From IMG/VR virus record IMGVR_UViG_3300042261_001117, positions 25,277-89,276 of that record: DNA of 64,000 bases, one strand, 5' to 3'. Every line of letters begins with the position of its first letter. The first letter of the stretch is position 1. The DNA is from a virus. Shown here piece by piece: positions 6,031 to 63,236 of this stretch. The notes below the pieces were generated by a model that saw only the letters and a program-made list of their open reading frames with translations, did not search any database and had not been told where the DNA came from. Position numbers and translations under genes: made by a program.

Positions 6031-6039
6031 GTGGTTGCC

Positions 6040-7194
6040 ATGATCGCCAAGTTCCTGCACCTCGCGGACCTGCACATCAACGCGCAGGCCACGCTGGCCG
6101 GGCAAGTGCGCGTCGGACCCAACGGCATCAACCTCCGCACCGCGGACCTGCTGCGCGCGATCGGCGCGGTGGCTGCGGAGGCGTCTCGCGACGGCGACCT
6201 GTTCGGCGCCGTCATCGCGGGAGACCTGTACGACCACGACCGCCCGACGCCGCTCGAGGAGGAGATCGCGGCGACGATCATCGAGACGCTCAGCGGCGCG
6301 TGCGCGGGCTGCAGTACGAAGGTGCTGGTGATCGATGGCAACCACGACATCCCGCGCGGGACGGGCCCGAGCGCACCGACGTCGCTGAACTGGCACCCGC
6401 TGGCGATGATGATTCACGATCCGGAGGTGGTCTGCTACTACGGGCTGCGGATCGGGTGTCTGCCGTACCCGCGCATCGGCGGCAACGCGGAGTTGCTGCG
6501 CGCGGGCGCGGTCGATGCGATTGCCGCGGGGCTGCGAGCGGGCGGCGCGGATGTGCTTGTCGCGCATGCGAACACAGGGCAGGCGGTGGCGGGCAAGCAG
6601 CCCCGCCCACTGGACGACGCGGTCACGCTCTCGCACGCTGTCCTGGCGCAGTTCCCGTGCGTGATGCTCGGGCATATCCACCGCCCGCAGGAGTGGGGCC
6701 CGGTCGCGTACTGCGGATCGCCGATGGTCGAGGACTGGGGCGAAGCAAACGACGGTACGGTGCGCGGCGCGGCGCTGTGGACGCTGGAGTGCGACGCAGA
6801 TCTGGCGTCGTCGCCGCCGGACTACACGGTGCGCTCCGCGACGCTGCGGAGACTCTCCGCTCCGGACAGGACGTGGATCGACATCCCGGCGGACCAGTGG
6901 TGCGAGGATTCCGTTGACCCGTCGTCGGGCGCGGTCCATCGTGTCAAGGGGCGGCTGCGGGCGACGGACGCCGCCGCGGTGCACGCGGAGATCAGATCGC
7001 TACGGGCGAAGGGCGCTCTGATCCAGGCGGAGATCACGATCGAGCAGGAGGACCGGCGCCGCAGCGAGGACGTGGCGCGTGCGCTGACCGACGATCAGAT
7101 CCTGCTGGGCGCGATCAAGCTGCGGCAGACCGATCCTGCGATCGTCGACGGCGCCATGGCGGTTGTGCAGGACATACTCGGGGGTGGAGCATGA
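6040..7194 (+). CDS. sbcD: SbcD/Mre11-like metallophosphoesterase nuclease
   Basis: ADLH, AGDLYD, GNHD, LGHIH and YCGSP motifs. Confidence 0.9.
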   Translation: MIAKFLHLADLHINAQATLAGQVRVGPNGINLRTADLLRAIGAVAAEASRDGDLFGAVIAGDLYDHDRPTPLEEEIAATIIETLSGACAGCSTKVLVIDGNHDIPRGTGPSAPTSLNWHPLAMMIHDPEVVCYYGLRIGCLPYPRIGGNAELLRAGAVDAIAAGLRAGGADVLVAHANTGQAVAGKQPRPLDDAVTLSHAVLAQFPCVMLGHIHRPQEWGPVAYCGSPMVEDWGEANDGTVRGAALWTLECDADLASSPPDYTVRSATLRRLSAPDRTWIDIPADQWCEDSVDPSSGAVHRVKGRLRATDAAAVHAEIRSLRAKGALIQAEITIEQEDRRRSEDVARALTDDQILLGAIKLRQTDPAIVDGAMAVVQDILGGGA

Positions 7195-9524
7195 TCCCAG
7201 TTCGAATCGCGGTTCAGAACTTCAACAGCTACACCGGAGCGGAGATCGACTTCACCGGCGTGCGATCGGCGATGGTGGTCGGCGACACCGGCGCGGGCAA
7301 GAGCACGCTGTTCGTCGACGCGTTCCTGTGGGCGACCACCGGCCAGTGCCGGGCGCCCGGGATCGACGACGTCATCCGCCTGGGCGCGGACGAGTGCGGC
7401 GTCGATTACACGTACCTCGCGGACGGGCAGATGCGGCGCGTCGTGCGTACCCGGTCGCGGAAGGGCCGTGGAAGCGGCACGCTCGAGTACTACGTCGACG
7501 GCCAGTCGCGCAACGGCGCCAACGTGAGCGAGACGCAGAAGGCGATCCTCGCGGACCTGCGCGTCGACTACGCGACCATGGTGACGACGAGCTTCCTGGT
7601 CCAGGGCAAGAGCGGGGCGTTTGCGGAGGCGCCCAGGCGTGAGCGCATGGCGCTGGTGGCGCGGATGATCGGCTGCGACCGCTTCAAAATCTACGCGGAG
7701 ACCGGTCGCGAGATGGCCCGCAACACGAAGGCGGAGATCGCCGCTCGCGAGACGAACGCCGCGGCTCTGGAAGGACAGACCAGCGACGAGTTGCTCGAGC
7801 GGCTGCGGGTTGCGTGGGCGGATGCGACGGCGCTGCACCAGCGCTCGGCAGACCGCGAGGCGGAGATCGCGGTTGAGATGCTCAACGCCCGCAACCTCGT
7901 GGCCATGTGCGAGGACGGTGCCCGGCGCAACGCGGAGACCAGGGCTGCGCTCAACGCCGAACTCGGCAAGGGTGCGGACCTGCGACTGCGGCGCCGGTCG
8001 CTGGATGCGGAAAGCGAGCGACTCGACCGGGCGATGATCGATCTGCGGGCGCAGGTCGACGCGGATGCGCCAGATCTGGATGCGCTTCGAGCGGCGGCGG
8101 AGCTTGCCACGTCGGCAGCTACTGCTGCACGCGAAGCGGAGGTGGCGGCGCGAACCACGGCGGCGAACGCAGAGCGCGAAGCGGATGCTGCTCGACACGC
8201 GCACCAGATGGCAGAGCAGGAGGCGCTGGCGGAGTACCGCGCGAAAACGGCAGACCTGACCACTCGCACCGAGCGCGCCACCGCGGAGTGCAGGGCGCTG
8301 GCAGATCGCCTGCAGCAATCACGCGACGCGCGGAAGCGCATCTCGCAGGTGCCATGCGGAGGACTCGGCGACTACGCGACGTGCCCGCTGATCGAGGTCG
8401 CTGTCTCCAGCCAGTGCGACGAGGGTGCTCTGGCGGAGATGCTTTCCGCAGCGAACGCGGCGCTGTCTGCGCTGCAGTCGGAACGAATGTCCATGCCGTA
8501 TGCGGTGCAAGAGACGCAGAAGACGATCGAGACGAAGAGCACTCGTGTTGCGGCAGCAAAGACGCGCGACGATGCCACGGCGTCTGCCACGGAACGCCAA
8601 GCCGATGCACAGCGTGCGCTGCGCGCGCTCTCCGACGCGCAGTCGGCGCTTTCCAGCGCGGAGGCGCGCGCTACCGCGCAGGCGTCCGCCCGCGCGACCA
8701 TGGACGCAACGTCGGCCAACGTCGCGCGCGTGCGTGGCGATCTGGCCGCCATCGACGATGCCATCGCTGTGTCGGATCGCGAATGCGCGGTCTTGCGTGG
8801 TGCCATCGACGCGGAGGTCGACGCCCGGCTGGCGGCTTGCCGCGCGAACGTCGAGCGGCTGTCCACCGAGGCCGCGCAAGCGGCGCGCGCCACGGCGACC
8901 GCTGCTGGCGCAGTCGCGAACGCCGCGCGGGCCATCGACGACGTCGGCGCGATGCGCAAGCGGCTCGCGTCGGAGCGCGCTGAGATCCAGACGCGCGCCA
9001 AGCATCTCGCGCACATCGAGGTGGCGGTCGCGGCGTGTAAGGACGCGCCGCAGCTACTGATCGAATCCATCGTTCCCAGCATCGAGATGAAGGCGAACGA
9101 ACTGCTCTCGCGCGTCTCGAACACCAGCATGCAGGTGCAGCTACGGACGCAGGCGGAGTTGAAGTCGCGCGAGGCCATGGCGGAGACGCTGGACGTGATC
9201 GTGGTCGACGAGATCGGCGAGCGTCCGTACGAGATGTACTCCGGAGGCGAGCGCTTCCGCATCGACTTCGCGCTGCGGGTGGCGCTGTCGTGGGCGCTGT
9301 CGATCCGCGCGGGCGCTCCGCTCGAGATGCTGGTCATCGACGAGGGCTTCGGCACGCAGGACGCGGCGGGGAAGCAGGCCTTCGCGGAGTGCTTGAACTC
9401 GGTCAACGACTTGTTCGAGAAGGTGATCGTGATCTCGCACGTGCCCGAGATGGAGAGCGCGTTTCCTGCGCGCTTCCGCGTGACGAAGGGCCCGAGCGGC
9501 AGCACCATCGCGCGGGAGGTGTGA
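7191..9524 (+). CDS. sbcC: SbcC/Rad50-like SMC ATPase
   Basis: NFNSY, Walker A GDTGAGKST, long coiled coil, signature YSGGE, Walker B IDEGFGTQD, ISH. Confidence 0.92.
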   Translation: MIPVRIAVQNFNSYTGAEIDFTGVRSAMVVGDTGAGKSTLFVDAFLWATTGQCRAPGIDDVIRLGADECGVDYTYLADGQMRRVVRTRSRKGRGSGTLEYYVDGQSRNGANVSETQKAILADLRVDYATMVTTSFLVQGKSGAFAEAPRRERMALVARMIGCDRFKIYAETGREMARNTKAEIAARETNAAALEGQTSDELLERLRVAWADATALHQRSADREAEIAVEMLNARNLVAMCEDGARRNAETRAALNAELGKGADLRLRRRSLDAESERLDRAMIDLRAQVDADAPDLDALRAAAELATSAATAAREAEVAARTTAANAEREADAARHAHQMAEQEALAEYRAKTADLTTRTERATAECRALADRLQQSRDARKRISQVPCGGLGDYATCPLIEVAVSSQCDEGALAEMLSAANAALSALQSERMSMPYAVQETQKTIETKSTRVAAAKTRDDATASATERQADAQRALRALSDAQSALSSAEARATAQASARATMDATSANVARVRGDLAAIDDAIAVSDRECAVLRGAIDAEVDARLAACRANVERLSTEAAQAARATATAAGAVANAARAIDDVGAMRKRLASERAEIQTRAKHLAHIEVAVAACKDAPQLLIESIVPSIEMKANELLSRVSNTSMQVQLRTQAELKSREAMAETLDVIVVDEIGERPYEMYSGGERFRIDFALRVALSWALSIRAGAPLEMLVIDEGFGTQDAAGKQAFAECLNSVNDLFEKVIVISHVPEMESAFPARFRVTKGPSGSTIAREV

Positions 9525-10131: not shown

Positions 10132-10413
10132 ATGCGGATCGCGATTCTCTGCGTGCTGGTGGTGCTGGCTGCGTGCTCGCGCGGCAACTACTGCAAGGAA
10201 GCGAAGACCATCATGGACGACTGCGGCTTCGGGCCGTCGTCGGAATCGTCGACGGCGCTGCGGTCGGCGTGCGACGCCGGAGCGGCGGACGCGGTGATGC
10301 TCGCGAAGTGCTTGATCGTGGCGGACCGCTACGAGCAGACGCGCGGGTGCTCGCAGATGCGGTTCATGACGTGCGTCGAACTGGTGTCGCGAGCACGATC
10401 CGGCAGGCTGTGA
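10132..10413 (+). CDS. Cys-rich lipoprotein
   Basis: Hydrophobic signal with lipobox LAAC. Confidence 0.6.
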   Translation: MRIAILCVLVVLAACSRGNYCKEAKTIMDDCGFGPSSESSTALRSACDAGAADAVMLAKCLIVADRYEQTRGCSQMRFMTCVELVSRARSGRL

Positions 10414-10431: not shown

Positions 10432-10461
10432 TTGACGGGAGCGGCGCGAACGGCGTAGCGT
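10432..10461 (+). promoter_or_regulatory. sigma70-like promoter of the replication operon
   Basis: TTGACG-N18-TAGCGT in an intergenic gap. Confidence 0.55.
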
Positions 10462-10465
10462 GTTC

Positions 10466-10566
10466 GTGCAACCGGCTCTGTTCACCAATCAAGCTCTCGC
10501 GCCCCCCGGTGGTGGCGACTCTTCGGAGCCGGTTGCACCCACCACCGGGGGCCACGCGAGTTTTGT
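10466..10566 (+). ncRNA. putative structured 5' leader (A-B-UUCG-A'-B')
   Basis: Two interleaved perfect 13-bp inverted repeats, a CTC-TTCG-GAG hairpin and a trailing TTTT. Confidence 0.55.
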
Positions 10567-10596
10567 GCGCTGGGCGTAGCGTGGCGAGGAGTGCGC

Positions 10597-11709
10597 ATGG
10601 GCGGCACTAGCTGGGTACGCATGGACGCAGCGTACGACGACCATCCGGACGTTCGGCGCGCTGGGCTTGAGGGTAGCGTGGTGTTTCAGGCGCTCGTGCG
10701 CAGATCGAAGCTGTTTGGCCTCGACGGCATCGTCAGCAAGAAGTACCTCGACGTGGAGTACCTAGCGGACGTGCTGAAAGCTCCACAGGACTTCATCCAG
10801 CGCGGGCTGGTGGCGTGCTTGCGCGTTGGACTGATCCGCGACGGCGATGGCGGCGTGACGATACCAGGGTGGGATCGCTTCCAGAGTCCCGACACGTTGC
10901 GGAAGCAGCGCTACACGGAACGGCACGGACGAGACGCAGCAGATGGTGCGCAGCAGGTTGATCCGTTCCTGTCCGTTCCAAGAACGGACGAGAACGGACG
11001 AGAACGGATTGGAACGGATTGTCCGTCTGACGTGACGGTACGTGACGAGACAGGACGTGACGAGACGCACGAGCACTGCGCGCGCGCGCGTACGCACGAG
11101 GATTCGACCCCAGCACCCGCCGCACCGACCACGCCGCCGCCTGATCCCGCGCGGCTCGCTGCGATCCGAAACGAGATGGCCATGGCGGACGCGCAGCGAG
11201 AAGCCGAGAGCGGCGTGCGTGTGCGCCCACTTCGCGTCGATCCGGAGCGCGAGGCCCGTGACGCCGCGTGGGCGGAAGAGATGGCGCTAGCGGCCAACGT
11301 CGCGCACGACGACGGCAAGATCCTCTCGGTCTACCAGCACTGGCTCGACTCCGCGGGTTTGCCTCCGCGCTGCATGTGCCCCGACGACCTGTACATGGGC
11401 AAGACGTTCCGACTGCTGGTGCTGGAGCGGCTGAGAGACGGGCTGACCTACGACGACATGAAGCGGGCGATCACGTCGTGCCACGGAAGCAAGCGGCATC
11501 AGGAGCGCGGCGTGTCGGGGTGGGGCGCTATCCTGCGGTCGCTCTCGACGGTGCAGGAGTTCATGGCAATCGCCAACGCGAAGGCCAAGCCGCAGCAGCG
11601 ATCGGGTAGGCTGTCTGACGAGGAATTCGCGAAGCGGTACGAGGAGCGCAAGGCGGAGAAGGCGCGGAACGAGGCGCTGCTGGCACAACACGGTCGGGGT
11701 CCGAGATGA
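10597..11709 (+). CDS. phage replication initiator (replisome organiser / O-like)
   Basis: N-terminal WVRMD...HPDV...L..GLI...IPGWDRFQ pattern, internal iterons and RDETGRDET linker. Confidence 0.7.
   Translation: MGGTSWVRMDAAYDDHPDVRRAGLEGSVVFQALVRRSKLFGLDGIVSKKYLDVEYLADVLKAPQDFIQRGLVACLRVGLIRDGDGGVTIPGWDRFQSPDTLRKQRYTERHGRDAADGAQQVDPFLSVPRTDENGRERIGTDCPSDVTVRDETGRDETHEHCARARTHEDSTPAPAAPTTPPPDPARLAAIRNEMAMADAQREAESGVRVRPLRVDPEREARDAAWAEEMALAANVAHDDGKILSVYQHWLDSAGLPPRCMCPDDLYMGKTFRLLVLERLRDGLTYDDMKRAITSCHGSKRHQERGVSGWGAILRSLSTVQEFMAIANAKAKPQQRSGRLSDEEFAKRYEERKAEKARNEALLAQHGRGPR
10961..11020. repeat. iterons, putative replication origin
   Basis: Four tandem 10-mers (AGAACGGACG x2, AGAACGGATT, GGAACGGATT) preceded by two inverted copies (ATCCGTTCCT, GTCCGTTCCA). 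Confidence 0.7.
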
Positions 11710-13870: not shown

Positions 13871-14689
13871 ATGGCTGGGATCTACGAGCCTCGCGGGCGC
13901 GCACTGGAGTACAGCCCGCTGGCGCTCAACCTGTACAACGGCTGTGACCACGCGTGCTCGTACTGCTACAACCGGCGCATTTACCGGTCGAACTGGACGG
14001 CCGACGCGAAGCCCATGGCGTGGCTCACGCTCGACGCGCTGCAGAAGACGTGCGAGAAGTACGCGGGCAGCCTCGATCAGGTGCTGCTGTCCTTCGTCGG
14101 CGACCCGTACTGCGCGGCGGACGAACGCGAGCGCTGGACGCGCGTGGCGCTGGAAGCGCTGCTGCACAACCGCATTCCCGCTGCGGTGCTGACGAAGGGC
14201 GGCAATCGCTGTCTGCGGGACGTGGACCTGTTCCGCGCGTTCGGTCGGTCGATCATGGTCGGTGCGACCATCACCGGCATGGACGACCTCGAGTCCGGCG
14301 CCGCGACGAACCAGCATCGCTGCGACGTGCTCGATGAACTGGCTCGGTGCGGTGTGCCCACCTGGGCGTCGTTTGAGCCGGTCATCGACCCGGAGAAGTC
14401 GTTGGCGTGGCTGGCGTACGTGCTTGATCGCGGTGCGGTGTGGATGGTCAAGATCGGCAAGTGCAACCAGTGGGGCGGGTGCGACGACTCGAAGATCGAC
14501 TGGGCCAAGTTCCTGGCCAACGCGGTCGGCATCTGCGAGGAGTCGACGGTGCGGTACTACATCAAGGACTCGCTGTGGATCGCGGCGGGGCGGCCGGAGT
14601 TCGTGTACGTCAACCACGCGGTGGCGATGGACGACGGCCACCGCAACCCGCGGCTGTTCCAATCGGAGCCGTTCGGAAAGGTGGCATGA
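13871..14689 (+). CDS. radical SAM protein (SPL-like family)
   Basis: CDHACSYC cluster motif; GDPY, LTKG and SFEPVID. Confidence 0.85.
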   Translation: MAGIYEPRGRALEYSPLALNLYNGCDHACSYCYNRRIYRSNWTADAKPMAWLTLDALQKTCEKYAGSLDQVLLSFVGDPYCAADERERWTRVALEALLHNRIPAAVLTKGGNRCLRDVDLFRAFGRSIMVGATITGMDDLESGAATNQHRCDVLDELARCGVPTWASFEPVIDPEKSLAWLAYVLDRGAVWMVKIGKCNQWGGCDDSKIDWAKFLANAVGICEESTVRYYIKDSLWIAAGRPEFVYVNHAVAMDDGHRNPRLFQSEPFGKVA

Positions 14690-23406: not shown

Positions 23407-23888
23407 TCTCATCCTTCCTCGCGCTCCCGTCCGTCGCTCTGGCGTTGCTGCTGGCGCCGGACGCACGGGTGTCCACGTACCGCGCACTCGAGGTCGCGCT
23501 GGCGTGCGAGGCGTCGTGCCGCGGGACGCTGGTGCGCCCGGATGAGTGTGTAGCGCTCGCGTACGTCGAGACGCGGTTCAGACCGGAGCGCGTGAGCGCG
23601 AAGGGGTGCATTGGTGTCGTCCAGGTTTCGGTCTGCAACTTGCTGGTCGCAGGTCGTCGCGTGAACGCACCGGCAGCGGGGCCATGGGACGTCCACTGCA
23701 TCGCTGGCGGGATCGATGCGGGTGTCCTGGCGGCAGATGCACTGAAACGCGCGCACGGGGCATTGTGGCCCCGATTTTACGGCTGTGGCACGAAGGCGGC
23801 GCGCAGGGGCGACAGAGCGTGTGTGCAGCACGAGATGCGCGTCTACCGCGCCATGAAGCGACTTGCTAGTACGGCGCCGGTGTCGTAA
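23403..23888 (+). CDS. lytic transglycosylase (SLT)-like protein
   Basis: Hydrophobic N-terminus; [23 protein letters not shown] resembles the SLT catalytic motif. Confidence 0.55.
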
Positions 23889-23891
23889 AAT
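23863..23891 (+). promoter_or_regulatory. sigma70-like promoter of the HNH gene
   Basis: TTGCTA-N17-TAAAAT. Confidence 0.6.
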
Positions 23892-23897
23892 GATCCC

Positions 23898-24007
23898 GCT
23901 TGTGACCGCTTGCTTCGGCAAGCACGACAACTTGGTTCCTCACGGTGGCGGTGGGCATCTTCCCTTCGGGGCAAGCGGCACAAGCAACCACCGCCCCGTG
24001 GGGAGCC
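23898..24007 (+). ncRNA. putative structured 5' leader (A-B-UUCG-A'-B')
   Basis: Interleaved inverted repeats of about 15 and 20 bp plus two cTTCGg hairpins. Confidence 0.55.
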
Positions 24008-24024: not shown

Positions 24025-24690
24025 ATGCCACGAAAAGCGCTATATGGTGACGATCGCCTGGGCGCTATCATAAACATGATTGCAGTAAAGTCGATTGTTA
24101 AAGACGGATGTCTGATATACACTGGTTGTAAGGATGGTAGGTACCCATACGCGGAGGTGGATGGTCGCCATATTGCATTAAGCAGACTGATATACGCGAT
24201 TGTTTTTGGCAACATACCGGATGGTATGTACGTATGCCATAGATGCGACAACAAGCGCTGTGTAAACCCGGATCACCTGTTCATTGGCACACCGGCAGAC
24301 AACACGCACGACATGATGAACAAAGGGCGTCAAAGATTCGATTTGTCGCGTCCCGGGCGGGCGGCGGAGGTCGGGAATATAGGGTGGAGCGGAAAAACGA
24401 CAAGGGGACAACGCATCGTTGAGTTATTACGCGACGGAGTTGAGCGAACAACGCGTAATGTTGCAGAGCATCTTGGGTGCGATGTGTCTGCGGCAAAGCA
24501 AAGTTTGAAACTAGAACAAGAACATGGGAGAATCAATGTAAGGAAAGTCGCGCTTGTTACAATAAAAACCGGCGCAGTGCCAATATCACGCACAAAAAAA
24601 CGCTATCGCGAGTCCAGTAGGCGCTTGGTTAGTATGTGGTCAATACACTGCAATACGCTTGCCATCCTACGACACCGGAAGGAGACCTGA
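24025..24690 (+). CDS. HNH homing endonuclease with C-terminal HTH
   Basis: [28 protein letters not shown]; clearly lower GC than flanks. Confidence 0.88.
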
Positions 24691-33985: not shown

Positions 33986-34651
33986 ATGACCGGCAGACAC
34001 GCAGGACCAGACGGGAAGAAGCGCGCGACCAGCAAGGAGAAGAAGACCTCGCCACGACTTGGCAAGCCTGGGCCGCACATCACCGTCGACCTCGCGCTCT
34101 ACCGCAGGGCGTGGGAGATCTACAAACTGCGGCCGTACCCGAACGCGATCTACGAGGGCATCCCGGAGATCGGGCGCACGTACGCGAAGCAGCTTGTCGA
34201 GCGCGGCGTGCCGGAGATTGGGCTGCCGCCGCTCTCGATCAAGATGCAGGTCGCGATGTCGTTGGCCACGCAGATGGACGTGGACGAGGCCGCGCAGTCG
34301 GTGGCGGTGGGGCGCAAGGCGCTTCGCACCGCGCTGCGCGCGATGCTGCTGCGCATCGATCAGGTGGTGTCGTCGCCGACCGAGCTAGCGCGGCTGTCGC
34401 CCGCCGCGTGCATCGCGCTGATCCCGAAGTCCGTCGAGTTGAACGAGAAGCTGTCGAAGCCGACCGATGAACTGACGATGGACGCGCTGAACCAGTTCAA
34501 CGACGGCGTCACGGACGTGCTGGGAGGCCTGTTCGCGTCGCTCCGCGACATCGCTGCCAAGCGTCTACCCAAGACGCCCGACGCCGCGAAGATGAACGCC
34601 ACCACGCCCGAGCGGCTCGACAAGCTGGAGAAGACCGGGGCCCTCGAATGA
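33986..34651 (+). CDS. putative terminase small subunit
   Basis: Basic N-terminus, helical, coupled directly to the large subunit (positional call). Confidence 0.5.
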   Translation: MTGRHAGPDGKKRATSKEKKTSPRLGKPGPHITVDLALYRRAWEIYKLRPYPNAIYEGIPEIGRTYAKQLVERGVPEIGLPPLSIKMQVAMSLATQMDVDEAAQSVAVGRKALRTALRAMLLRIDQVVSSPTELARLSPAACIALIPKSVELNEKLSKPTDELTMDALNQFNDGVTDVLGGLFASLRDIAAKRLPKTPDAAKMNATTPERLDKLEKTGALE

Positions 34652-36405
34652 AGTCCGCCGCACCTCCGCGCGGCGCCCGGCGACCGCAGGCGTCTCCGTC
34701 GCCGATCATCGTCCCGCGCATCACCGAGCCGCTGCGGGCGGTCGTCCCGCCCGCGGTGCTCCGCCAATCGAAGGAACTCAACCCCGAGCAGCGTACCGCG
34801 CTCAAGACCGCGATCGTGTCGGTGCTCGACGACTGGCTGCGTCCGTACCAGCGCGAGTGGCTGGCGGACACGTCCCAGCACAAGGTGGCCAACTGGTCGC
34901 GCCAGATCGGCAAGAGCGAGGTGATCTCGCTCGAGGCGATTCTTCAGGGCCTCGAGCCGCCGGAGACGATGGAGAAGTGCGAGATCCTCGTCAGCGCCAG
35001 CCAGTCGCAGGCGAACGAGATCATGATGAAGGCCGTGCGCTGGAGCCACATCATCGACGAGATCGCGCGCAAGACGCTGGGCGTCTCGATCTACATGAAC
35101 GGCAAGGGCCCGCAGTCCGCTCACCCGGAGCAGATCTGGTTGTACAATTCCGTGCGCGTCATCACGCTGCCCGCGAACCCGTACTCCGCTGCGGGCTACC
35201 ACGGCGACGTCTTTTGGGATGAGGTCGCCAAGACTCCCCACGATGACCTGATGTGGGACGCGCTGCACCCGATGATCTCCGGCAACAACTACCGCTTCCG
35301 CGCCACCAGCACGCCGTGGGGCGACCAGGGGAAGTACTACGAGATCTGGCACAACCTCCCCGACTGGTCGAAGCACCAAGTCACGATCATCGACGCCGTG
35401 CGCCAGGGCGTCCCGCGCGACCTGGAGTCCATGCGACGCCAGTACGACGCGATCACCTGGGCGCAGAACTACCTGTGCCGATTCCTCTCGTCGCTGACGA
35501 GCGCGTACCCGCGCGACCTGCTGAAGGCTGCGATCGAGTTGTACTCCGACCTGCCGGACCTACCGCGCGCGCCAGCTCCGGGCGTCTGGCCGGACGACGT
35601 GTACGTGACGCTGGGCATCGACATCGGCCGCACCAACGACCGCACCGCGCTGGTGTGGGAGTACGAGTACCCGCAGGGCTGCTACCGCTTTGAGCGCGTG
35701 CGGCAACTGGTCAAGATGCCGTTCGCGCAGCAAGAGCAGGTCATCCGCGAGATCCTGCGCGGCGGCGAAGTTCACAAGTGCCAGATCGACTCGACCGGCA
35801 TCGGCATGCAGATGGCGGAGAACCTCTCGAACGAGTTCCCCGAGATCGTGCGACCGGTGACGTTCACGAACCAGCAGAAGGCGCAGATGGTGCTGGCCAT
35901 GCGCGCGGACTTCGAGCGCGGCGTGCTGGCCATGGTGCCGGACAACGACCTGCTCAGCGACTTCACCTCGGTGCGGCAGGAGATCCTGGAGTCGTCGCGC
36001 ACGGTGCGGTTCGGCAGCGCACGCACCGCCAGCGGGCACGCGGACGGGCACTGGGCGGCAGGCCTCGCGCACGACGCGCAGGTCAACCGCGCGGAGTGGC
36101 AGGTCGGCGACAGCGACGTGGACGAGCCGGTCATCCGGCGTCGGCAGCAGGGCAAGGGCTTCTCGATCGAGACGCCGCTTCCGGTCGATCCGTACTACGG
36201 CGGCATGGGCGGGATGCCGAAGGGCAGCGACATCACCGGCGGCCCGAGCTACGAGGGCGACCTCGACGACCTGTCGATGCTCGACGACGAGACGCTGGAG
36301 ATGAAGCTGCTGGGGCTGGACCCGGACGACTACGACGAGGACCAGGAGAAGCGCACGGCTGGCCGCCGAGCGCAATTGTTCAAAGGCGTTCGCAAAAAGA
36401 GTTGA
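34648..36405 (+). CDS. terL: terminase large subunit (Terminase_6, Mu gp28-like)
   Basis: LRPYQ, SRQIGKS, WDEVA, TSTP, GIDIGR.ND, IDSTGIG, GHAD..WA. Confidence 0.92.
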   Translation: MKSAAPPRGARRPQASPSPIIVPRITEPLRAVVPPAVLRQSKELNPEQRTALKTAIVSVLDDWLRPYQREWLADTSQHKVANWSRQIGKSEVISLEAILQGLEPPETMEKCEILVSASQSQANEIMMKAVRWSHIIDEIARKTLGVSIYMNGKGPQSAHPEQIWLYNSVRVITLPANPYSAAGYHGDVFWDEVAKTPHDDLMWDALHPMISGNNYRFRATSTPWGDQGKYYEIWHNLPDWSKHQVTIIDAVRQGVPRDLESMRRQYDAITWAQNYLCRFLSSLTSAYPRDLLKAAIELYSDLPDLPRAPAPGVWPDDVYVTLGIDIGRTNDRTALVWEYEYPQGCYRFERVRQLVKMPFAQQEQVIREILRGGEVHKCQIDSTGIGMQMAENLSNEFPEIVRPVTFTNQQKAQMVLAMRADFERGVLAMVPDNDLLSDFTSVRQEILESSRTVRFGSARTASGHADGHWAAGLAHDAQVNRAEWQVGDSDVDEPVIRRRQQGKGFSIETPLPVDPYYGGMGGMPKGSDITGGPSYEGDLDDLSMLDDETLEMKLLGLDPDDYDEDQEKRTAGRRAQLFKGVRKKS

Positions 36406-37841: not shown

Positions 37842-37914
37842 GGGCCAGTAGCTCAGTTGGGTGAGCGCCACCCTTGCAAGGTGGAGGTCGCCGGTTCAAT
37901 CCCGGTCTGGTCCA
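37842..37914 (+). tRNA. tRNA-Ala(TGC), CCA not encoded
   Basis: Full cloverleaf: acceptor GGGCCAG/CTGGTCC with G3:U70, anticodon arm CCACC-CTTGCAA-GGTGG, T loop TTCAATC, discriminator A. Confidence 0.95.
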
Positions 37915-37934
37915 CTGCGTTGGAGAGGTAATCG

Positions 37935-49456: not shown

Positions 49457-51205
49457 ATGGCGAGGCGCGGGCGAGGCGCGGGCATGGGCGGTGCTGCTCC
49501 GCGGCGATCCGGAGCGGCGATCCAGCACCTGCGCCAGCAACAGAACCTCCAGCAGTCGCAGATCCCGCACGAACCACGCGACGTCGACGAATCCCAGGCG
49601 CTGCTCTTTGACCCGGACACGCTTCGCGAGTGGCACGAGGTGCTCGAGGCCACGCGCACGCACAGCCAGTTCGGCGTCTACGCGCTGAAGCAGATCGCGC
49701 GCGCGCCCGGCGTCCAAGCCATCGTCAACACCCGGCTCAACCAGCTAGCGAACTTCTCCAGGCCTCGCGAGGACAAGTACGGGACCGGCTTCCAACTGGT
49801 GACGCGCGAGGCGAAGCGCTCGCCGACGAAGCAGGAGAAGCTCCGCGCCCGCGAGATCACGAAGATGATCCAGACGTGCGGCTCGTTCGACAAGCCGTAC
49901 GAGCGCTTCCAGCGCAAGCACTTCGACGTGTTCCTGCAGGAGTGCGGGCGCGACTCGCTGGTCCTCGACGTGTTCCCGTTCGAAGTCATCATGGACCGGC
50001 GCGACAAGTACCCGCGCTGGTGGCAGCCCGTCGACGGCGCGAAGATCTTCCGCGTCATCCCTCAGAACCCCTACGGCAACTACAGCCCGACCGACGCCGC
50101 GTACGTGCAGCGGTGGCAGGACCAGGACGTCGCGTGGTGGGCGATGGACCAGTTGTGCTGCGGCGTGCGCCGCAGCCGCACCGACATGGAAAGCCAGGGG
50201 TACGGCTACCCGGAACTCGCAGAGTGCCTCGAAGTCGTCACCGGAATGCTGGTGGGCTGGGCCTACAACTTCAAGTTCTTCCAGAACGGCGGGCCCCGCG
50301 GCGTCGTGAGCGTCAACGGCGAGATCGCGAAGAAGAAGCTGCTGGCGTTCCAACGGCAGATGCTGTGGGCGGCGAGCGGGCTGAAGAACGCGTTCCGTAC
50401 GCTGATCGTGAACCCGTCAGGCCCGAACGCGTCGATCAACTGGGTGCCGTTCGGCGTCCCGAACAAGGAGATGGAGTTCTCGTCGTGGATCGACTCGAAC
50501 TTCCGCATGCTGTGCGCGGTGTTCGGCATCGAGCCCGACGAGACAGGCTACCACTACGGCAACGGCACCGGGCAGAAGGCGCTGTTCGAGACGTCGCCGG
50601 AGGCCAAGCTCAAGTACGGGAAGAGCAAGGGGCTGAGCCCGTTCCTTCGCAAGATCGAGTTCTTCCTGAACCAGTACATCGTGTGGCGGCTCGAGAACGG
50701 CGAGGACTTCGAACTGCAGTTCCTCGGCGACGGCGCCATGAGCGAGAACGAGCGTGCGGACCTCGACGAGAAGCTGGTGCGCAGCACGCACACCATCGAC
50801 GAGGTGCGCGCGGAGCACGACCTCCCGCCGCTGCCGGACGGCAAGGGCGAGTTCATCCTCAACCCGACGTACTACCAGATCGCGGTGGGCGTGGATCAGG
50901 CTGCGCAGGGCGGCATGGGCGGTGGGATGGACGGGCAGGGCGGATCGCCCGGCCAGGACGCCGCAGGTGGCGCGCAGGACGGGCAGAACGGCGCGGGAGA
51001 GCAGGGCGGTGGCGGTGACGCAGCGGGACCGGACCTCGCGACGGACTGGGGCGACGCTGGCGCGTCGGTGCCGGAGCACGACTGGGAAGGAGCGGCGGGC
51101 GGTGCGATCGGCGCCGGTGGTGGCGATGCTGCGAAGGCCGTCGCTGCGCCGTCAAACGTAGTTGACAAACGCGCTGGGCTGCGCAGAGTCACGGTCGTAG
51201 CCTGA
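49457..51205 (+). CDS. portal protein (SPO1/Twort-like)
   Basis: AIVNTRLNQ, RDSLVLD, VDGA.I, GYGYPEL, FFQNGG, KEMEF..W, KSKGL.P.L, TIDEVR. Confidence 0.9.
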   Translation: MARRGRGAGMGGAAPRRSGAAIQHLRQQQNLQQSQIPHEPRDVDESQALLFDPDTLREWHEVLEATRTHSQFGVYALKQIARAPGVQAIVNTRLNQLANFSRPREDKYGTGFQLVTREAKRSPTKQEKLRAREITKMIQTCGSFDKPYERFQRKHFDVFLQECGRDSLVLDVFPFEVIMDRRDKYPRWWQPVDGAKIFRVIPQNPYGNYSPTDAAYVQRWQDQDVAWWAMDQLCCGVRRSRTDMESQGYGYPELAECLEVVTGMLVGWAYNFKFFQNGGPRGVVSVNGEIAKKKLLAFQRQMLWAASGLKNAFRTLIVNPSGPNASINWVPFGVPNKEMEFSSWIDSNFRMLCAVFGIEPDETGYHYGNGTGQKALFETSPEAKLKYGKSKGLSPFLRKIEFFLNQYIVWRLENGEDFELQFLGDGAMSENERADLDEKLVRSTHTIDEVRAEHDLPPLPDGKGEFILNPTYYQIAVGVDQAAQGGMGGGMDGQGGSPGQDAAGGAQDGQNGAGEQGGGGDAAGPDLATDWGDAGASVPEHDWEGAAGGAIGAGGGDAAKAVAAPSNVVDKRAGLRRVTVVA

Positions 51206-58475: not shown

Positions 58476-59924
58476 ATGGACACTCAGTTCGCAGATCGCG
58501 ACGTGCTGAACGGCGGCTTCCCGTCGACGGAACTCATGAGCATGTACCAGCAGGTCATGAAGGACATCATGGCCGGTCACCCGGTGCCCGGGTACACCGG
58601 CGGCGGCGCGCTCGGCCCGCTGATGCTGCAGGACATCTCCGGCACGCTGAGCGTCGCCGGGTACAAGACGAAGCACATCAAGTTCTGGCCGCGCGTCCAG
58701 AAGGCGCCCGACAAGCTGCACAACACCGTGCACGAGTTCACGCGCCAGCGCGACTACGGCGACGACCTGCCGTTCTACACGGCAGAGGGCGGCATCGGGC
58801 CCCGCGTCGACGTGTCGATCGAGAGGCTGTTCGCGAAGTGCCGGTTCATGAGCCACATCCGCCGCGTGTCGCACGCAGCGGGGCTCATCAACCCCATCAT
58901 CGGCCCGGCCAAGGACGCCGTCGAGAAGGCCAACTGGGACGCGTCCCGGTGGCAGCTTCGGCAACTCGAGCGCGGCCTGTTCTTCGGCGACTCGACCACG
59001 AACCCCGAGTCGATCGACGGGCTCAAGCACGCGTGCGAGATCGAGGGCAACGTCTACGACATGCAGGGCGCGGCCATCGACACCGACGCGCTCTACAACA
59101 TCACCGTGACGCTGATCCAGAACAAGTTCGGCGACCCCGACGCGATCTGGATGGACTACACGGCGAAGCAGGACCTCGCCAAGGTCTTCCACAACTACGT
59201 CAAGTACGACATCCAGCCCGGCGTGACCGCCGCCAACATCAACGGCGGTGTCAACGCGATCGGCCTGATCGGGCCCGAGAAGCTCGTCAAGTTCGAGCCG
59301 AACGTGTTCCTGGCGCCGGACGGCGCGCCCAGCGACACCGCGCTCGGCGCCGACCAGCCCGCGACGCCCACGATCAAGGTGCAGCCCGCGGCCACGGGCG
59401 ACGCCGCGTCGAAGTTCAACAGCGACGACGAGGGCAACTACTACTACAAGGTGGTGGCGTTCGGTTCCACCGGCGACAACGGCGGCGTGACCGGGTGCAG
59501 CGCGCCCGTGACGTCGAGCGTGGTCGCGGTGACCGAGGGCGACAAGGTCGCGCTGACGATCACGAAGCCCGGCAGCGACAGCGTGGTGTTCTACCGCGTG
59601 TACCGCACGAAGCCCGGCGGCTCGGTGTACTACAAGGTGTTCGACGTGCGGCAGTCGTACTCCGAGGGCGCGGTCGCCGACACGGTCATCACCGACTACA
59701 ACGAGTACCGGCCCGACACCACGACCATGTTCGTCGTCGAGCACGACCCCGAGATCTTCATCTGGCAGCAGTTGATGGGCTTCACCCGCATCCCGTTCGC
59801 GATGACCGAGCAGACGGGGCTGAAGCAGCCGTTCGCCTACGTGCTCTACGGCATGCTCGAGGTGATGGTCCCGTCGAAGATCTACATGATCAAGAACGTC
59901 GGGCGCGAGGTCGTGACCCTGTAG
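58476..59924 (+). CDS. major capsid protein (SPO1/Twort-like, with inserted beta-rich domain)
   Basis: NTVHEF, E.GLFFGD...DGL, FGDPDAIWM, YYYKVVA...YRVYR, C-terminal IKNV. Confidence 0.9.
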   Translation: MDTQFADRDVLNGGFPSTELMSMYQQVMKDIMAGHPVPGYTGGGALGPLMLQDISGTLSVAGYKTKHIKFWPRVQKAPDKLHNTVHEFTRQRDYGDDLPFYTAEGGIGPRVDVSIERLFAKCRFMSHIRRVSHAAGLINPIIGPAKDAVEKANWDASRWQLRQLERGLFFGDSTTNPESIDGLKHACEIEGNVYDMQGAAIDTDALYNITVTLIQNKFGDPDAIWMDYTAKQDLAKVFHNYVKYDIQPGVTAANINGGVNAIGLIGPEKLVKFEPNVFLAPDGAPSDTALGADQPATPTIKVQPAATGDAASKFNSDDEGNYYYKVVAFGSTGDNGGVTGCSAPVTSSVVAVTEGDKVALTITKPGSDSVVFYRVYRTKPGGSVYYKVFDVRQSYSEGAVADTVITDYNEYRPDTTTMFVVEHDPEIFIWQQLMGFTRIPFAMTEQTGLKQPFAYVLYGMLEVMVPSKIYMIKNVGREVVTL

Positions 59925-62442: not shown

Positions 62443-63236
62443 GCGCAGAAGTAGAAGCGCCGTTCACGCGGGAAGACCTGCTGCTGGCGTTCCGCGCCAC
62501 GCGTGCGGACCTGTCTGCGTGGGTGGCGCAGGTGGCGTGGGACGCTCACCGCCAACTGACAACGCTGGCCCAGCAGCGGCTCAAGACGTCGCTCCGCGAC
62601 TACCAAGAGGGCATCCAGCCGGTGGTCGAGAACGGCATGAGCGCGTCGTTCTCGCTGGTGGGCTGGCTGCCGAACGCGGTGGAGTGGGGCTGCGAGCCGT
62701 ACGACATGCGGACGACGCTGCTGCACGGTCCGAACGCGCAGGTCGTTCCGCGTGGGCAGCCCGGCATCCACGATGGCAAGAAGGGGCGCTACCGGTCGAT
62801 CCCGTTCCGCCACTACACGCCGGGATCGAGTGGGTACGAGGGTTCGGTTATGGGGATGCCGTACGAGCAGATGCTGGGGCCCGACGCCGCGCGGAAGCTC
62901 GGGCAGCAGGTCTACAATACGATGCGAGCGCGAGTGGCCGCAGCGAAGGCGAGCGGCTCCGCAAAGACGGTGCGTCTGCCAGCGTCTGCCGGTGGCCCGC
63001 TGCTTCGCCCGCACCACTCGACCGGCATCTACACCGGAATGGTCCGTCCGGAGCGCGCGTACAAGGGCACAACGCAGGGCTTCTACCAGACGTTTCGCAC
63101 CATCTCGGACGGCAACCCGGTGGGGTGGATGCACCCGGGCATCGAGCCGCAAGGGCTGATGATGGCCACGGTGTCGTACCTCGAGCAGACGGCGGGAGCC
63201 ACGCTCGTGGAGATCATGACCGCAGGTGACGCATGA
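62439..63236 (+). CDS. putative neck / tail completion protein
   Basis: PNAVEWG..PYDM, IPFRH, TFRTISD and WMHPG; synteny. Confidence 0.65.
   Translation: MSAEVEAPFTREDLLLAFRATRADLSAWVAQVAWDAHRQLTTLAQQRLKTSLRDYQEGIQPVVENGMSASFSLVGWLPNAVEWGCEPYDMRTTLLHGPNAQVVPRGQPGIHDGKKGRYRSIPFRHYTPGSSGYEGSVMGMPYEQMLGPDAARKLGQQVYNTMRARVAAAKASGSAKTVRLPASAGGPLLRPHHSTGIYTGMVRPERAYKGTTQGFYQTFRTISDGNPVGWMHPGIEPQGLMMATVSYLEQTAGATLVEIMTAGDA

What the first reader, a model, noticed from the sequence alone, without database searches (positions are those of the whole stretch)
10466..10566. Interleaved-stem RNA leader before the replication initiator
Seen: starting at the predicted TSS, A=GTGCAACCGGCTC (10466-78), B=CCCCCGGTGGTGG (10503-15), hairpin CTC-TTCG-GAG, A'=GAGCCGGTTGCAC (10526-38), B'=CCACCACCGGGGG (10539-51), extension CTCGCG/CGCGAG, then TTTT. 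Inference: the A-B-A'-B' order gives pseudoknot topology, and two 13-bp helices are unlikely to form fully together, so this looks like a co-transcriptional switch (A:A' antiterminator versus B:B' terminator) controlling replication genes. I do not recognise it as a named RNA family.
Basis: partly seen in the sequence, partly recalled or inferred. Interest (0 to 1): 0.7.

Follow-up and report, generated by a model that had tools for sequence, protein, structure and literature searches.

The report
Covarying two-helix phage leader RNA
Right after a promoter, an uncultured freshwater phage makes a roughly 100-base RNA whose two long crossing helices have been kept by compensating mutations; it probably throttles the replication and nuclease genes behind it.

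Summary
A/A' (10466-78/10526-38) and B/B' (10503-15/10539-51) are perfect 13-bp inverted repeats in A-B-A'-B' order. They are the only Watson-Crick helices of 13 bp or more in the window. No interleaved pair appeared in 0 of 20 shuffles.

The element is one of three members. A paralogue lies before an HNH gene (23898-24007). An orthologue lies before the replication module of a very distant phage (L024). W1 and L024 are 84% identical in the leader while their flanking genes are unrelated. Six of 34 pairs changed on both sides and still pair, four in A:A' and two in B:B'. In all three, A starts 5-7 nt after a -10 box. No Rfam family matches any of them.

Best reading (0.4): a portable promoter-plus-leader cassette acting as a co-transcriptional throttle. 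A:A' forms first and hinders completion of the 19-20-bp B rod without sharing bases with it. Against this, only 1 of 3 members has a U-tract, and linker lengths would allow both helices at once.

A static pseudoknot or a processing site remain live rivals. Function is untested.

This scan's earlier notes (AI, unchecked) report the same architecture on other phage DNA. I found one analogue myself (L087).

The parts
10432..10461 (+). Promoter-like site of copy W1: TTGACG (10432-37), 18-nt spacer, TAGCGT (10456-61)
   Evidence: Read. Both hexamers are kept in the L024 orthologue as TTGACG-18-TATCTT. Not listed by the consensus scan. TSS not mapped.
10466..10480 (+). A: 5' arm of helix A:A' (13 bp perfect, 15 bp with one G-U). 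It begins 5 nt after the -10 box, so probably at the RNA's first bases.
   Evidence: (I2)
10481..10495 (+). L1: C/A-rich, G-poor linker, predicted unpaired
   Evidence: It is the most variable part between W1 and L024.
10496..10515 (+). 5' arm of the B rod: extension CTCGCG (10496-501), one C, B core (10503-15)
   Evidence: (I1)
10519..10528 (+). Mini-hairpin CUC-UUCG-GAG. Its GAG is also the first three bases of A'.
   Evidence: Kept in L024, and as CCC-UUCG-GGG in W2.
10524..10538 (+). A': 3' arm of helix A:A'. It lies inside the loop of the B rod.
10539..10560 (+). 3' arm of the B rod: B' core (10539-51), CCA, extension CGCGAG (10555-60). There are 0 nt between A' and B'.
10561..10564 (+). 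TTTT run after the B rod (in this copy only)
   Evidence: Absent in L024 (CTTGCG) and in W2 (TCGCTT).
10586..11709 (+). SD GAGGAG (10586-91) and downstream gene from ATG 10597: probable replication initiation protein
   Evidence: phrog_16167 E 6e-4. Its homologue P0002 hits two other 'replication initiation' PHROGs at 5e-4 and 1e-3. The N-terminus WVRMDAAYD, upstream of the ATG at 10621, is conserved in P0002.
23863..23891 (+). Promoter-like site of copy W2: TTGCTA (23863-68), 17 nt, TAAAAT (23886-91)
   Evidence: Read
23898..23913 (+). W2 A arm (15 bp with A', one bulged A). Its 3' half can instead form a local hairpin GCUUGC-UUCG-GCAAGC (23908-23).
   Evidence: (I3)
23934..23954 (+). W2 B arm (20 bp with B', two G-U pairs, one bulged U)
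   Evidence: (I4)
23962..23971 (+). W2 mini-hairpin CCC-UUCG-GGG
23971..23985 (+). W2 A' arm
23988..24007 (+). W2 B' arm, 2 nt (AA) after A'. No T-run follows.
24025..24690 (+). Free-standing HNH homing-type endonuclease gene. The start at 24025 or 24076 is not settled.
   Evidence: Pfam HNH_3 4.8e-11. phrog_1872 8e-27 covering residues 9-105.

Best explanation
The stretch is a portable promoter-plus-leader cassette. Its RNA, about 100 nt, starts at or within a few bases of A.

Proposed course of events: (1) A, the C/A-rich linker, the 5' arm of the B rod and the UUCG mini-hairpin are made. (2) As soon as A' emerges it pairs with the transcript's 5' end (13-15 bp). This closes a ring that holds the 5' arm of B. 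(3) B' emerges 0-2 nt behind A'. The 19-20-bp GC-rich B rod is the more stable fold. It shares no bases with A:A', so it cannot displace it by branch migration. With the 3' end held in the polymerase it cannot wind more than about one turn around a strand inside a closed ring. Its base therefore stays open while the polymerase passes, and transcription reads on.

If A is not available, the B rod closes fully. Causes could be a slow A:A', the competing 5' hairpin in W2, or a bound factor. A closed B rod would stop or stall the polymerase, or leave a processed or blocked leader. The cassette thus sets what fraction of starts from a strong promoter reaches the gene behind it.

Shown: the helices, their order, their conservation by compensatory change, their position at the promoter, and the predicted order and energies of folding. 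Inferred: the TSS, mutual exclusion, termination at B, and any input signal.
For: (a) Both helices are selected. W1 against L024: 34 pairs, 27 invariant, 6 changed on both sides and still paired (4 in A:A', 2 in B:B'), 1 broken. Versions slid by 1-3 columns gave 0 such pairs. 6 of 500 shuffles reached the observed value.
(b) 14 of 68 paired columns differ against 12 of 31 unpaired columns inside the element.
(c) W2 keeps the same order, helix lengths (A 15 bp, B 20 bp), UUCG mini-hairpin and A'-B' adjacency with quite different arm sequences.
(d) Descriptor scans put the three elements well above background. UUCG-anchored scan: -73.6 and -68.7 against a next best of -49.4 in G000, and -67.7 against -55.2 in G001. 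General junction scan: -72.8, -72.5 and -71.7 against background scores no stronger than -63.6.
(e) A begins 5-7 nt after the -10 hexamer in 3 of 3 members.
(f) All wobble positions in the helices are G-U on the + strand: 98 Watson-Crick, 7 G-U, 0 A-C and 1 other among 106 pairs.
(g) Folding order in 3 of 3: the prefix through A' folds as A:A' (-35.2, -31.6, -39.2 kcal/mol). At full length the nested optimum is the B rod (-50.4, -52.7, -63.2), against -42.7, -38.5 and -43.0 with B' held open.
(h) W1 has UUUU directly after the rod.
(i) Cassette behaviour: 84% identity over 109 columns between phages that share only a few proteins at 30-63% identity. The neighbouring genes are unrelated.
(j) Precedent for antitermination without sequence overlap: tug-of-war riboswitches, where a structure abutting a terminator suppresses it sterically (bioRxiv 10.64898/2026.06.17.733018; abstract and sections 7 and 9 read).
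(k) An analogous leader lies before a related HNH gene in L087. There the 5' end pairs into the loop of a 21-nt-arm hairpin whose 3' arm holds a U-rich stretch, UUUAUGAU.
Against: A U-tract follows the B rod in 1 of 3 members only (L024: CUUGCG; W2: UCGCUU).

The B loop is 23-33 nt, which is large for an intrinsic terminator, and the tool's terminator scan lists nothing here.

Mutual exclusion is not shown. In a crude A-form model with A'B' as one continuous strand the linkers are long enough (L2 must span 45-50 A and can reach 69-107 A; L1 must span 71-99 A and can reach 113-158 A). A rough sum of helix energies with a pseudoknot penalty (the penalty value is recalled) equals the nested optimum.

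No input signal is identified: no conserved pocket, no conserved leader ORF, no antisense promoter. The evidence rests on only three members, two of them in one genome. No transcript data exist. The host and its polymerase are unknown.
Confidence: 0.4

Rival explanations
1. Static pseudoknot. Both helices form together, stacked on the continuous A'B' strand, and bury the RNA's 5' end at the helix junction. The fold would stabilise the mRNA against 5'-end-dependent decay. Alternatively, as a double-stranded rod of 19-35 bp, it would be an RNase III-type processing site, like those that follow the early promoters of T7 (recalled).
For: The A'-B' gap is 0-2 nt in 3 of 3 members, and A starts at the predicted 5' end. 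Linker lengths suffice in the crude geometry. L2 grows with the A helix (10, 11 and 16 nt for 13, 13 and 15 bp). The linker L1 is C/A-rich and unpaired, as loops that run along helices often are. The rod length of 19-20 bp, with an internal loop or bulge, is kept in all three.
Against: The conserved UUCG mini-hairpin shares its 3' arm with A'. With only 3-5 nt before it in W1 and L024, it cannot coexist with both full helices, so at least two states exist. W2 carries a 5' hairpin that competes with A:A'. Helices longer than one turn need an end to be threaded through a loop. No nuclease data exist.
Confidence: 0.25
2. A nascent-RNA or protein-binding signal for processive antitermination or timing. 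It would act like the put RNA of HK022, or like a nut-type site for a phage protein. It would sit at the head of transcription units that must read through downstream stops.
For: The element is promoter-proximal and heads a long same-strand gene array. Sequence, not only structure, is conserved between distant phages: 84% identity, with invariant mini-hairpin and extension. putRNA acts alone on the elongation complex (PMC9378689, abstract read).
Against: W2 keeps little sequence beyond GGYGGUGG / CCACCRCC and the UUCG hairpin, so a shared binding surface would be small. put has two adjacent stem-loops, not crossing helices (recalled). W2 heads what looks like a single selfish gene.
Confidence: 0.1
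3. A small RNA of about 95-110 nt, ending at the B rod, that acts in trans or gives RNA-based immunity. It would resemble the P4 CI RNA with seqA/seqC, or P1 c4 (recalled).
For: It has its own promoter and a strong 3' hairpin, with UUUU in W1. It lies in front of replication genes, as in P4.
Against: No further copy or complement of A, or of the A'B' 26-mer, lies elsewhere in the window (1 match, itself; 5 against 3.5 expected). Looser B-like 13-mers are over-represented (10 against 2.3 expected, 0 of 100 shuffles), which I put down untested to GC-rich codon usage. W1 and W2 have different arms. No U-tract in 2 of 3 members.
Confidence: 0.07
4. A DNA-level element: operator half-sites, an origin, or only a recombination cassette.
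For: It lies next to replication genes. The cassette is conserved between mosaic phages, as PeSL promoter/terminator cassettes are in T4-like phages (PMC4122927, abstract read). The reverse complement folds even more stably by MFE in W1 and L024 (-55.7 against -46.3; -60.9 against -51.9).
Against: There are 7 G-U and 0 A-C among the helix pairs on the + strand (about 4 independent internal ones, so only suggestive). Arms 47-57 nt apart and interleaved are not how dimeric operators look. The second copy is before an HNH gene, not a replication gene. A starts at the predicted TSS in 3 of 3 members.
Confidence: 0.07

Closest known systems
Terminator/antiterminator attenuators in leaders, including countertranscript-driven attenuation before plasmid initiator genes (pT181 repC, pIP501 repR; recalled) and the zipper-type attenuator of pLS20 (PMC13401043, abstract read)
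   Same: A promoter-proximal leader of a mobile element. An early-forming long-range helix involves the 5' part. A later, more stable GC-rich hairpin lies before the first gene. The gene is a replication initiator in 2 of 3 copies.
   Different: In those systems the competing helices share bases. Here A:A' and B:B' share none; only the 3-nt GAG is shared, and that is between A' and the mini-hairpin. No antisense promoter, leader peptide or ligand site was found. A U-tract follows in 1 of 3 members.
Tug-of-war (TOW) riboswitches (Bushhouse, Fu and Lucks, bioRxiv 10.64898/2026.06.17.733018)
   Same: Antitermination without sequence overlap. A folded structure separated by a very short spacer from terminator sequence suppresses termination sterically.
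   Different: In TOW the structure lies wholly upstream of the terminator hairpin and is a ligand-binding aptamer. Here the helix encloses the terminator's 5' arm, abuts its 3' arm, and uses the transcript's 5' end. No ligand is implied.
H-type RNA pseudoknots
   Same: Two helices in the order S1-S2-S1'-S2'.
   Different: The helices are 13-15 and 19-20 bp, more than one turn each. The zero-length linker lies between the two 3' strands, not between S2 5' and S1 3', so classical stacking geometry does not apply. Simultaneous formation is unproven.
RNA-structure control of T4-type homing endonuclease genes (I-TevI/II/III, segB, mobE; review PMC2988022, passages read)
   Same: W2 and L087 are structured leaders directly before free-standing HNH genes. 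The review describes hairpins, internal terminators and promoter placement that keep such nucleases low.
   Different: Those are single hairpins that hide the ribosome-binding site, or terminators inside the gene. Crossing helices that start at the RNA's 5' end are not described there.
PeSL promoter/stem-loop cassettes of T4-like phages (PMC4122927 abstract read; PMC2839356 seen in listing only)
   Same: A small regulatory cassette is conserved at the nucleotide level between otherwise divergent phage regions. It is placed in front of different genes.
   Different: PeSL is described as a composite terminator/promoter motif. Here the promoter precedes a two-helix leader. No recombination junctions were shown here.
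HK022 put RNA (PMC9378689, abstract read)
   Same: A phage-encoded nascent RNA element near an early promoter that acts on transcription without a protein.
   Different: There is no sequence or architectural match, and binding to polymerase is untested.

Membership tests
Any Rfam 15 family | Covariance-model score at or above the family's gathering score | tested here: not met
   W1 region: best hits were miRNA models at 18-21 bits against gathering scores of 73-100, E about 4. W2 region: 17 bits against 80. L024 region: 15-17 bits against 37-137.
Intrinsic (factor-independent) terminator | GC-rich hairpin followed at once by a U-tract | tested here: inconclusive
   The hairpin is present in 3 of 3 members. 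UUUU follows in W1 only; L024 has CUUGCG and W2 has UCGCUU. The loop is 23-33 nt. The terminator scan lists nothing.
Classical attenuator / riboswitch expression platform | Antiterminator and terminator compete for the same nucleotides | tested here: not met
   The A, A', B and B' coordinates do not overlap. The only overlap is 3 nt of A' with the mini-hairpin.
Classical attenuator / riboswitch expression platform | An identified input (ligand pocket, leader peptide, tRNA, antisense RNA, protein) | tested here: inconclusive
   A 5'-terminal GUG frame of 37 codons in W1 (10466-10579) is GCG in L024, so it is not conserved. There is no promoter-like site on the minus strand by the consensus scan, but that scan also misses the sense promoter. 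Protein or ligand binding is not testable here.
H-type pseudoknot | Interleaved helices supported by covariation | tested here: met
   4 compensated pairs in A:A' and 2 in B:B'. W2 serves as an independent version.
H-type pseudoknot | Both helices present in one molecule at the same time | not testable with these tools
   Only a crude A-form distance check was possible. Linkers suffice for stacking on the A'B' strand, but the 0-2-nt A'-B' linker cannot cross a 13-15-bp helix in the classical arrangement.
Tug-of-war riboswitch | Ligand-binding aptamer immediately upstream of an intrinsic terminator, with a short spacer | tested here: not met
   The short spacer (0-2 nt) is met, but to the 3' arm only. 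No aptamer family matches. A:A' encloses the 5' arm instead of preceding the hairpin.
HDV-like self-cleaving ribozyme | Nested double pseudoknot with a 6-7-bp P1, P1.1, and a catalytic C in J4/2 between P4 and P2' (definition recalled) | tested here: not met
   The order A-B-(3-bp hairpin)-A'-B' resembles P1-P2-P3-P1'-P2'. However, A is 13-15 bp, the hairpin loop is UUCG, and A' joins B' with 0-2 nt, which leaves no P4 or J4/2. There was no Rfam ribozyme hit.
PeSL-type mobile regulatory cassette | The same short promoter/stem-loop motif at the borders of otherwise unrelated genes in related phages | tested here: inconclusive
   84% identity from the -35 box to about 25 nt past the rod, with unrelated genes on both sides. 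Only two phage lineages are known, so no exchange event can be traced.

The most novel reading that the evidence does not exclude
The helix between the transcript's first bases and the loop of the B hairpin is a topological antiterminator. It closes a ring around the 5' arm of the hairpin before the 3' arm is made. While the polymerase holds the 3' end, this stops the hairpin from winding past about one turn.

That would be a switch needing no shared nucleotides. It would be tunable by anything that delays 5'-end pairing, and it would be carried on a mobile promoter cassette. Many unrelated phages would use it to meter selfish nuclease and replication genes. This is the same architecture that this scan's earlier notes report in at least 13 other genomes, and that I saw in L087.
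Probability: 0.25. Interest if true: 0.85.

Novelty: new variant of a known kind. Interest (0 to 1): 0.6.

Why it matters
If the reading holds, phages have a compact, sequence-independent way to set expression from strong promoters. The helix arms can be changed freely as long as they pair. Control would come from RNA topology rather than from competition for the same bases.

That would extend the very recent finding that structures abutting terminators can suppress them. It would explain a recurring, uncatalogued leader before homing endonuclease and replication genes. It would also give a modular part for synthetic biology.

Even if the mechanism differs, this is a new conserved structured RNA at the head of phage replication modules. 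It has covariation support from very few sequences, so it is cheap to test.

Tried and rejected
Rfam. Nothing matched for W1, W2 or L024.

Relatives sought through proteins.
- The initiator has 2 homologues in the 5.8-billion-protein set, P0002 and P0003.
- The search for related loci with the protein or with alignment A1 found none in viral, genome or metagenome contigs.
- The L024 initiator found only its own two contigs.
- The SbcC-like gene found none.

Relatives sought through DNA patterns.
- Core pattern in viral contigs: 25 loci, 2 of them true.
- Tightened pattern in metagenome contigs: 21 loci, and in genome contigs: 12 loci, none convincing.
- L030, L038, L047 and L048 show the same order of elements, but with helices of only 8-9 bp and no informative variation. 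I treat them as chance.
- Extension-plus-hairpin pattern: 9 loci, 7 of them new and all chance.
- 5'-part pattern: 1 new locus, chance.

Covariance model and scans.
- Model R1, built from two sequences, finds W1 and its orthologue but not W2.
- A third interleaved pair at 62457-62546 lies inside a coding region, has many G-U pairs, no promoter and no UUCG. It scores -59.1, within the background range. I did not count it.
- Other scan hits (G000 5385, G001 59510) are coding sequence.

Other negative results.
- Leader peptide: the W1 frame starting at a 5' GUG is not conserved in L024.
- The regions downstream of the rods are not unusually structured (z -0.87, +0.61, -0.77).
- Expression: no RNA holder is listed. 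The contigs laid cover both leaders without variants and show no RNA.
- Host: the major capsid protein is 28% identical to SPO1-like phages, so no host can be inferred.
- Upstream of 25 HNH relatives (21 distinct segments), only L087 has a strong interleaved leader.
- Literature searches found no description of this element. These searches were few, and subscription journals are not covered. No supplementary files were consulted.

Faulty runs. One search timed out with no output. The scan mis-scored W1 and W2 because its long 3' window broke the order test; one search replaced it.

Full report
WHAT IS THERE.

The window is bases 25277-89276 of an 89,276-bp IMG/VR virus record. It is about 67% G+C and its genes lie almost all on the + strand. 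DNA holders are lake and freshwater metagenomes.

The flagged stretch lies in a 183-nt gap. Upstream is a small lipoprotein-like gene (10132-10413, GC3 0.89). Downstream is an ATG at 10597 preceded by GAGGAG. A 172-aa ORF that crosses the gap has GC3 0.57 and is not a gene.

- A 10466-78 and A' 10526-38: 13 nt, 100% complementary, 15 bp with one G-U.
- B 10503-15 and B' 10539-51: 13 nt, perfect.
- CTCGCG / CGCGAG extend B across a 1x3 internal loop.
- CUC-UUCG-GAG is at 10519-28.
- TTTT is at 10561-64.

A' lies in the loop of the B hairpin and touches B' with no base between them.

These are the only two Watson-Crick helices of 13 bp or more (span up to 130) in the 64-kb window. Shuffles gave a mean of 0.55. 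No interleaved pair of helices of 10 bp or more arose in 0 of 20 shuffles.

The nested minimum-energy fold chooses the B rod (-48.6 kcal/mol, z -2.5, 3 of 200 shuffles as good).

IT IS A SMALL FAMILY.

- After TTGCTA-17-TAAAAT come A 23898-913 and A' 23971-85 (15 bp, one bulge).
- B is 23934-54 and B' is 23988-24007 (20 bp, two G-U pairs, one bulge).
- CCC-UUCG-GGG directly abuts A'.
- AA lies between A' and B'.
- The fold has z -3.3, with 0 of 200 shuffles as good.
- It precedes an HNH_3 homing-type endonuclease gene.

A pattern built from what the two copies share found 25 viral loci. Two are true relatives, L013 and L024. They are two contigs of one phage, G001/G002, and are identical in the leader.

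In L024 the parts are:
- TTGACG (11850-55), 18 nt, TATCTT (11874-79)
- A 11884-98
- CTCGCG 11915-20
- B 11922-35
- CUC-UUCG-GAG 11940-49
- A' 11947-57
- B' 11959-72
- CGCGAG 11977-82

Then follow a 75-aa zinc-ribbon-like ORF, a clear replication initiation protein (phrog_2149, 4e-27) and a primase.

Descriptor scans of both complete records rank these three elements far above everything else. G001 has one copy only.

Six further collection scans and five protein-based retrievals found no other homologue. The family is rare in what could be searched.

BOTH HELICES ARE SELECTED.

W1 and L024 are 84% identical over 109 columns. The homology runs from the -35 box to about 25 nt past the rod.

The two phages otherwise share only a handful of proteins at 30-63% identity. 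Their initiators are barely alignable (one 24-residue BLASTP segment, E 0.004). The genes upstream are unrelated: lipoprotein-like in G000 and winged-helix in G001.

Of 34 pairs:
- 27 are invariant.
- 6 changed on both sides and still pair. Four are in A:A' (A-U to U-A, A-U to G-C, C-G to G-C, G-C to U-G). Two are in B:B' (two C-G to U-A).
- 1, near the end of A, is broken.

Versions slid by 1-3 columns show 0 such pairs. 6 of 500 shuffles reach the observed count. With two sequences this is modest statistics, but W2 adds an independent version with different arms.

Paired columns differ less (14 of 68) than unpaired ones inside the element (12 of 31).

Across the three members the helices hold 98 Watson-Crick, 7 G-U, 0 A-C and 1 other pair. 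About four of the G-U pairs are independent and internal. This points, weakly, to RNA of the + strand. Whole-sequence MFE does not help here, because the reverse complement folds more stably in W1 and L024.

A begins 5-7 nt after the -10 hexamer in all three. The paired 5' arm is therefore most likely the RNA's very 5' end. This is inferred, since no RNA data exist.

HOW IT MAY WORK.

In all three, the fold of the transcript up to A' is the long A:A' hairpin (-35.2, -31.6, -39.2 kcal/mol). At full length the nested optimum is the B rod (-50.4, -52.7, -63.2). With B' held open the values are -42.7, -38.5 and -43.0. That is the order of events of a kinetic switch.

The two helices share no base, however, so B' cannot displace A:A' by branch migration. 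What could make them exclusive is geometry and topology:
- The 0-2-nt A'-B' link cannot cross a 13-15-bp helix in the classical pseudoknot arrangement.
- A strand held at its 3' end cannot wind more than about one turn around a strand inside a closed ring.

This is my inference, and it is not proven. With A'B' as one continuous stacked strand, a crude A-form model gives linkers that are long enough. The summed helix energies are on a par with the nested optimum.

Two features argue that more than one state is used:
- The conserved UUCG mini-hairpin shares its 3' arm with A'. In W1 and L024 it has too short a 5' spacer (3-5 nt) to coexist with both full helices.
- W2 has a perfect 6-bp UUCG hairpin (23908-23) that competes for the 3' half of A.

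I therefore favour a co-transcriptional throttle at 0.4. A:A' delays or prevents closure of the B rod, and the closed rod stops, stalls or marks the transcript.

The weak point is the stop itself. UUUU follows the rod only in W1. A recent preprint shows that structures abutting terminators suppress them without any sequence overlap. That makes the principle plausible, though the layout there is different.

Live rivals are a static 5'-end-burying pseudoknot or an RNase III-type site (0.25), a put-like or protein-binding signal (0.1), a trans-acting small RNA (0.07) and a DNA-level element (0.07).

WIDER PICTURE.

Earlier notes of this scan are AI notes and I did not check them. A word search of them returned 14 findings in at least 13 other genomes. 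The listed ones mostly describe promoter-proximal leaders with interleaved helices. Several of those lie before HNH genes, and in some the first bases pair into the loop of a terminator-like hairpin.

Following that lead, I scanned 450 nt upstream of 25 viral loci that encode relatives of the W2 nuclease. These gave 21 distinct segments. One, L087 (45% G+C), has the same design with no sequence similarity:
- an extended -10 box
- A 725-740 pairing with A' 782-795, inside the loop of a hairpin with 21-nt arms (756-776 / 808-828) whose 3' arm holds a U-rich stretch, UUUAUGAU
- further competing pairings, one of which covers the ribosome-binding site

The other 20 segments show nothing above background with my scan. 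The architecture thus recurs, but it is not universal for this nuclease family.

VERDICT.

The element is a real, conserved, uncatalogued structured leader RNA carried with its promoter. Its function is inferred. It is a new variant of leader-RNA control, not an entirely new kind.

The one further orthologue that might exist, upstream of P0002, could therefore not be read.

Noticed in passing
window 23898-24007 (promoter 23863-91; HNH gene 24025-24690): Second copy of the same leader architecture with different arm sequences, before an AT-richer HNH homing-type endonuclease gene. The whole leader is open in the frame of the HNH ORF from 23863 on. In one near-optimal fold, GGCAAGCAC (23917-25) pairs with the GGUG...AUGCC start region (24017-29).
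   Followed up: yes
L087 710-845 (IMG/VR viral contig, 45% G+C): Analogous promoter-proximal leader before a related HNH gene (46% identity in the domain). The 5' end pairs into the loop of a hairpin with 21-nt arms. There are two more competing helices, 749-756/800-807 and 744-755/831-842; the latter covers the SD and the ATG. There is no sequence similarity to W1 or W2.
   Followed up: partly
window 62457-62546: Another interleaved pair (16 and 15 bp, many G-U pairs, 2 nt between the 3' arms). It starts 17 nt into a coding region (ATG 62440, overlapping the upstream stop). It has no promoter and no UUCG, and its score lies within the background of this GC-rich genome.
   Followed up: partly
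window 10452-10462 and 10573-10583: Exact 11-nt direct repeat GGCGTAGCGTG. The first copy holds the -10 box of W1. The second lies 9 nt after the T-run. L024 has a similar CTGGGGTGAGCGT at the second place. Meaning unknown.
   Followed up: no
window 10466-10579: If the RNA starts at G10466, it begins with GUG, which opens a 37-codon frame ending at TAG 10577-79. The start codon is GCG in L024, so the frame is not conserved.
   Followed up: partly
window 10132-10413: Small gene (93 aa, GC3 0.89) with a signal peptide and a lipobox-like LAAC. It may be a phage lipoprotein. No family hit.
   Followed up: no
window 6031-9524 and 13871-14689: SbcD-like and SbcC-like nuclease genes lie just upstream of the leader (Metallophos; phrog_100 and phrog_77). 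A radical-SAM protein lies downstream in the same array.
   Followed up: no
L030, L038, L047, L048 (soil metagenome contigs, about 70% G+C): Four contigs share a stretch with the same order of elements (8-bp 5' helix, 9-bp GGGGUGGCU/AGCCACCCC helix, CC-UUCG-GG). The helices are short and the one variant contig shows no informative change. Probably chance.
   Followed up: partly
window 37842-37915: A tRNA-Ala (TGC) gene in the phage. Large terminase is at 34648-36405, portal at 49457-51205, and major head protein at 58476-59924 (28% identical to SPO1-like phages).
   Followed up: no
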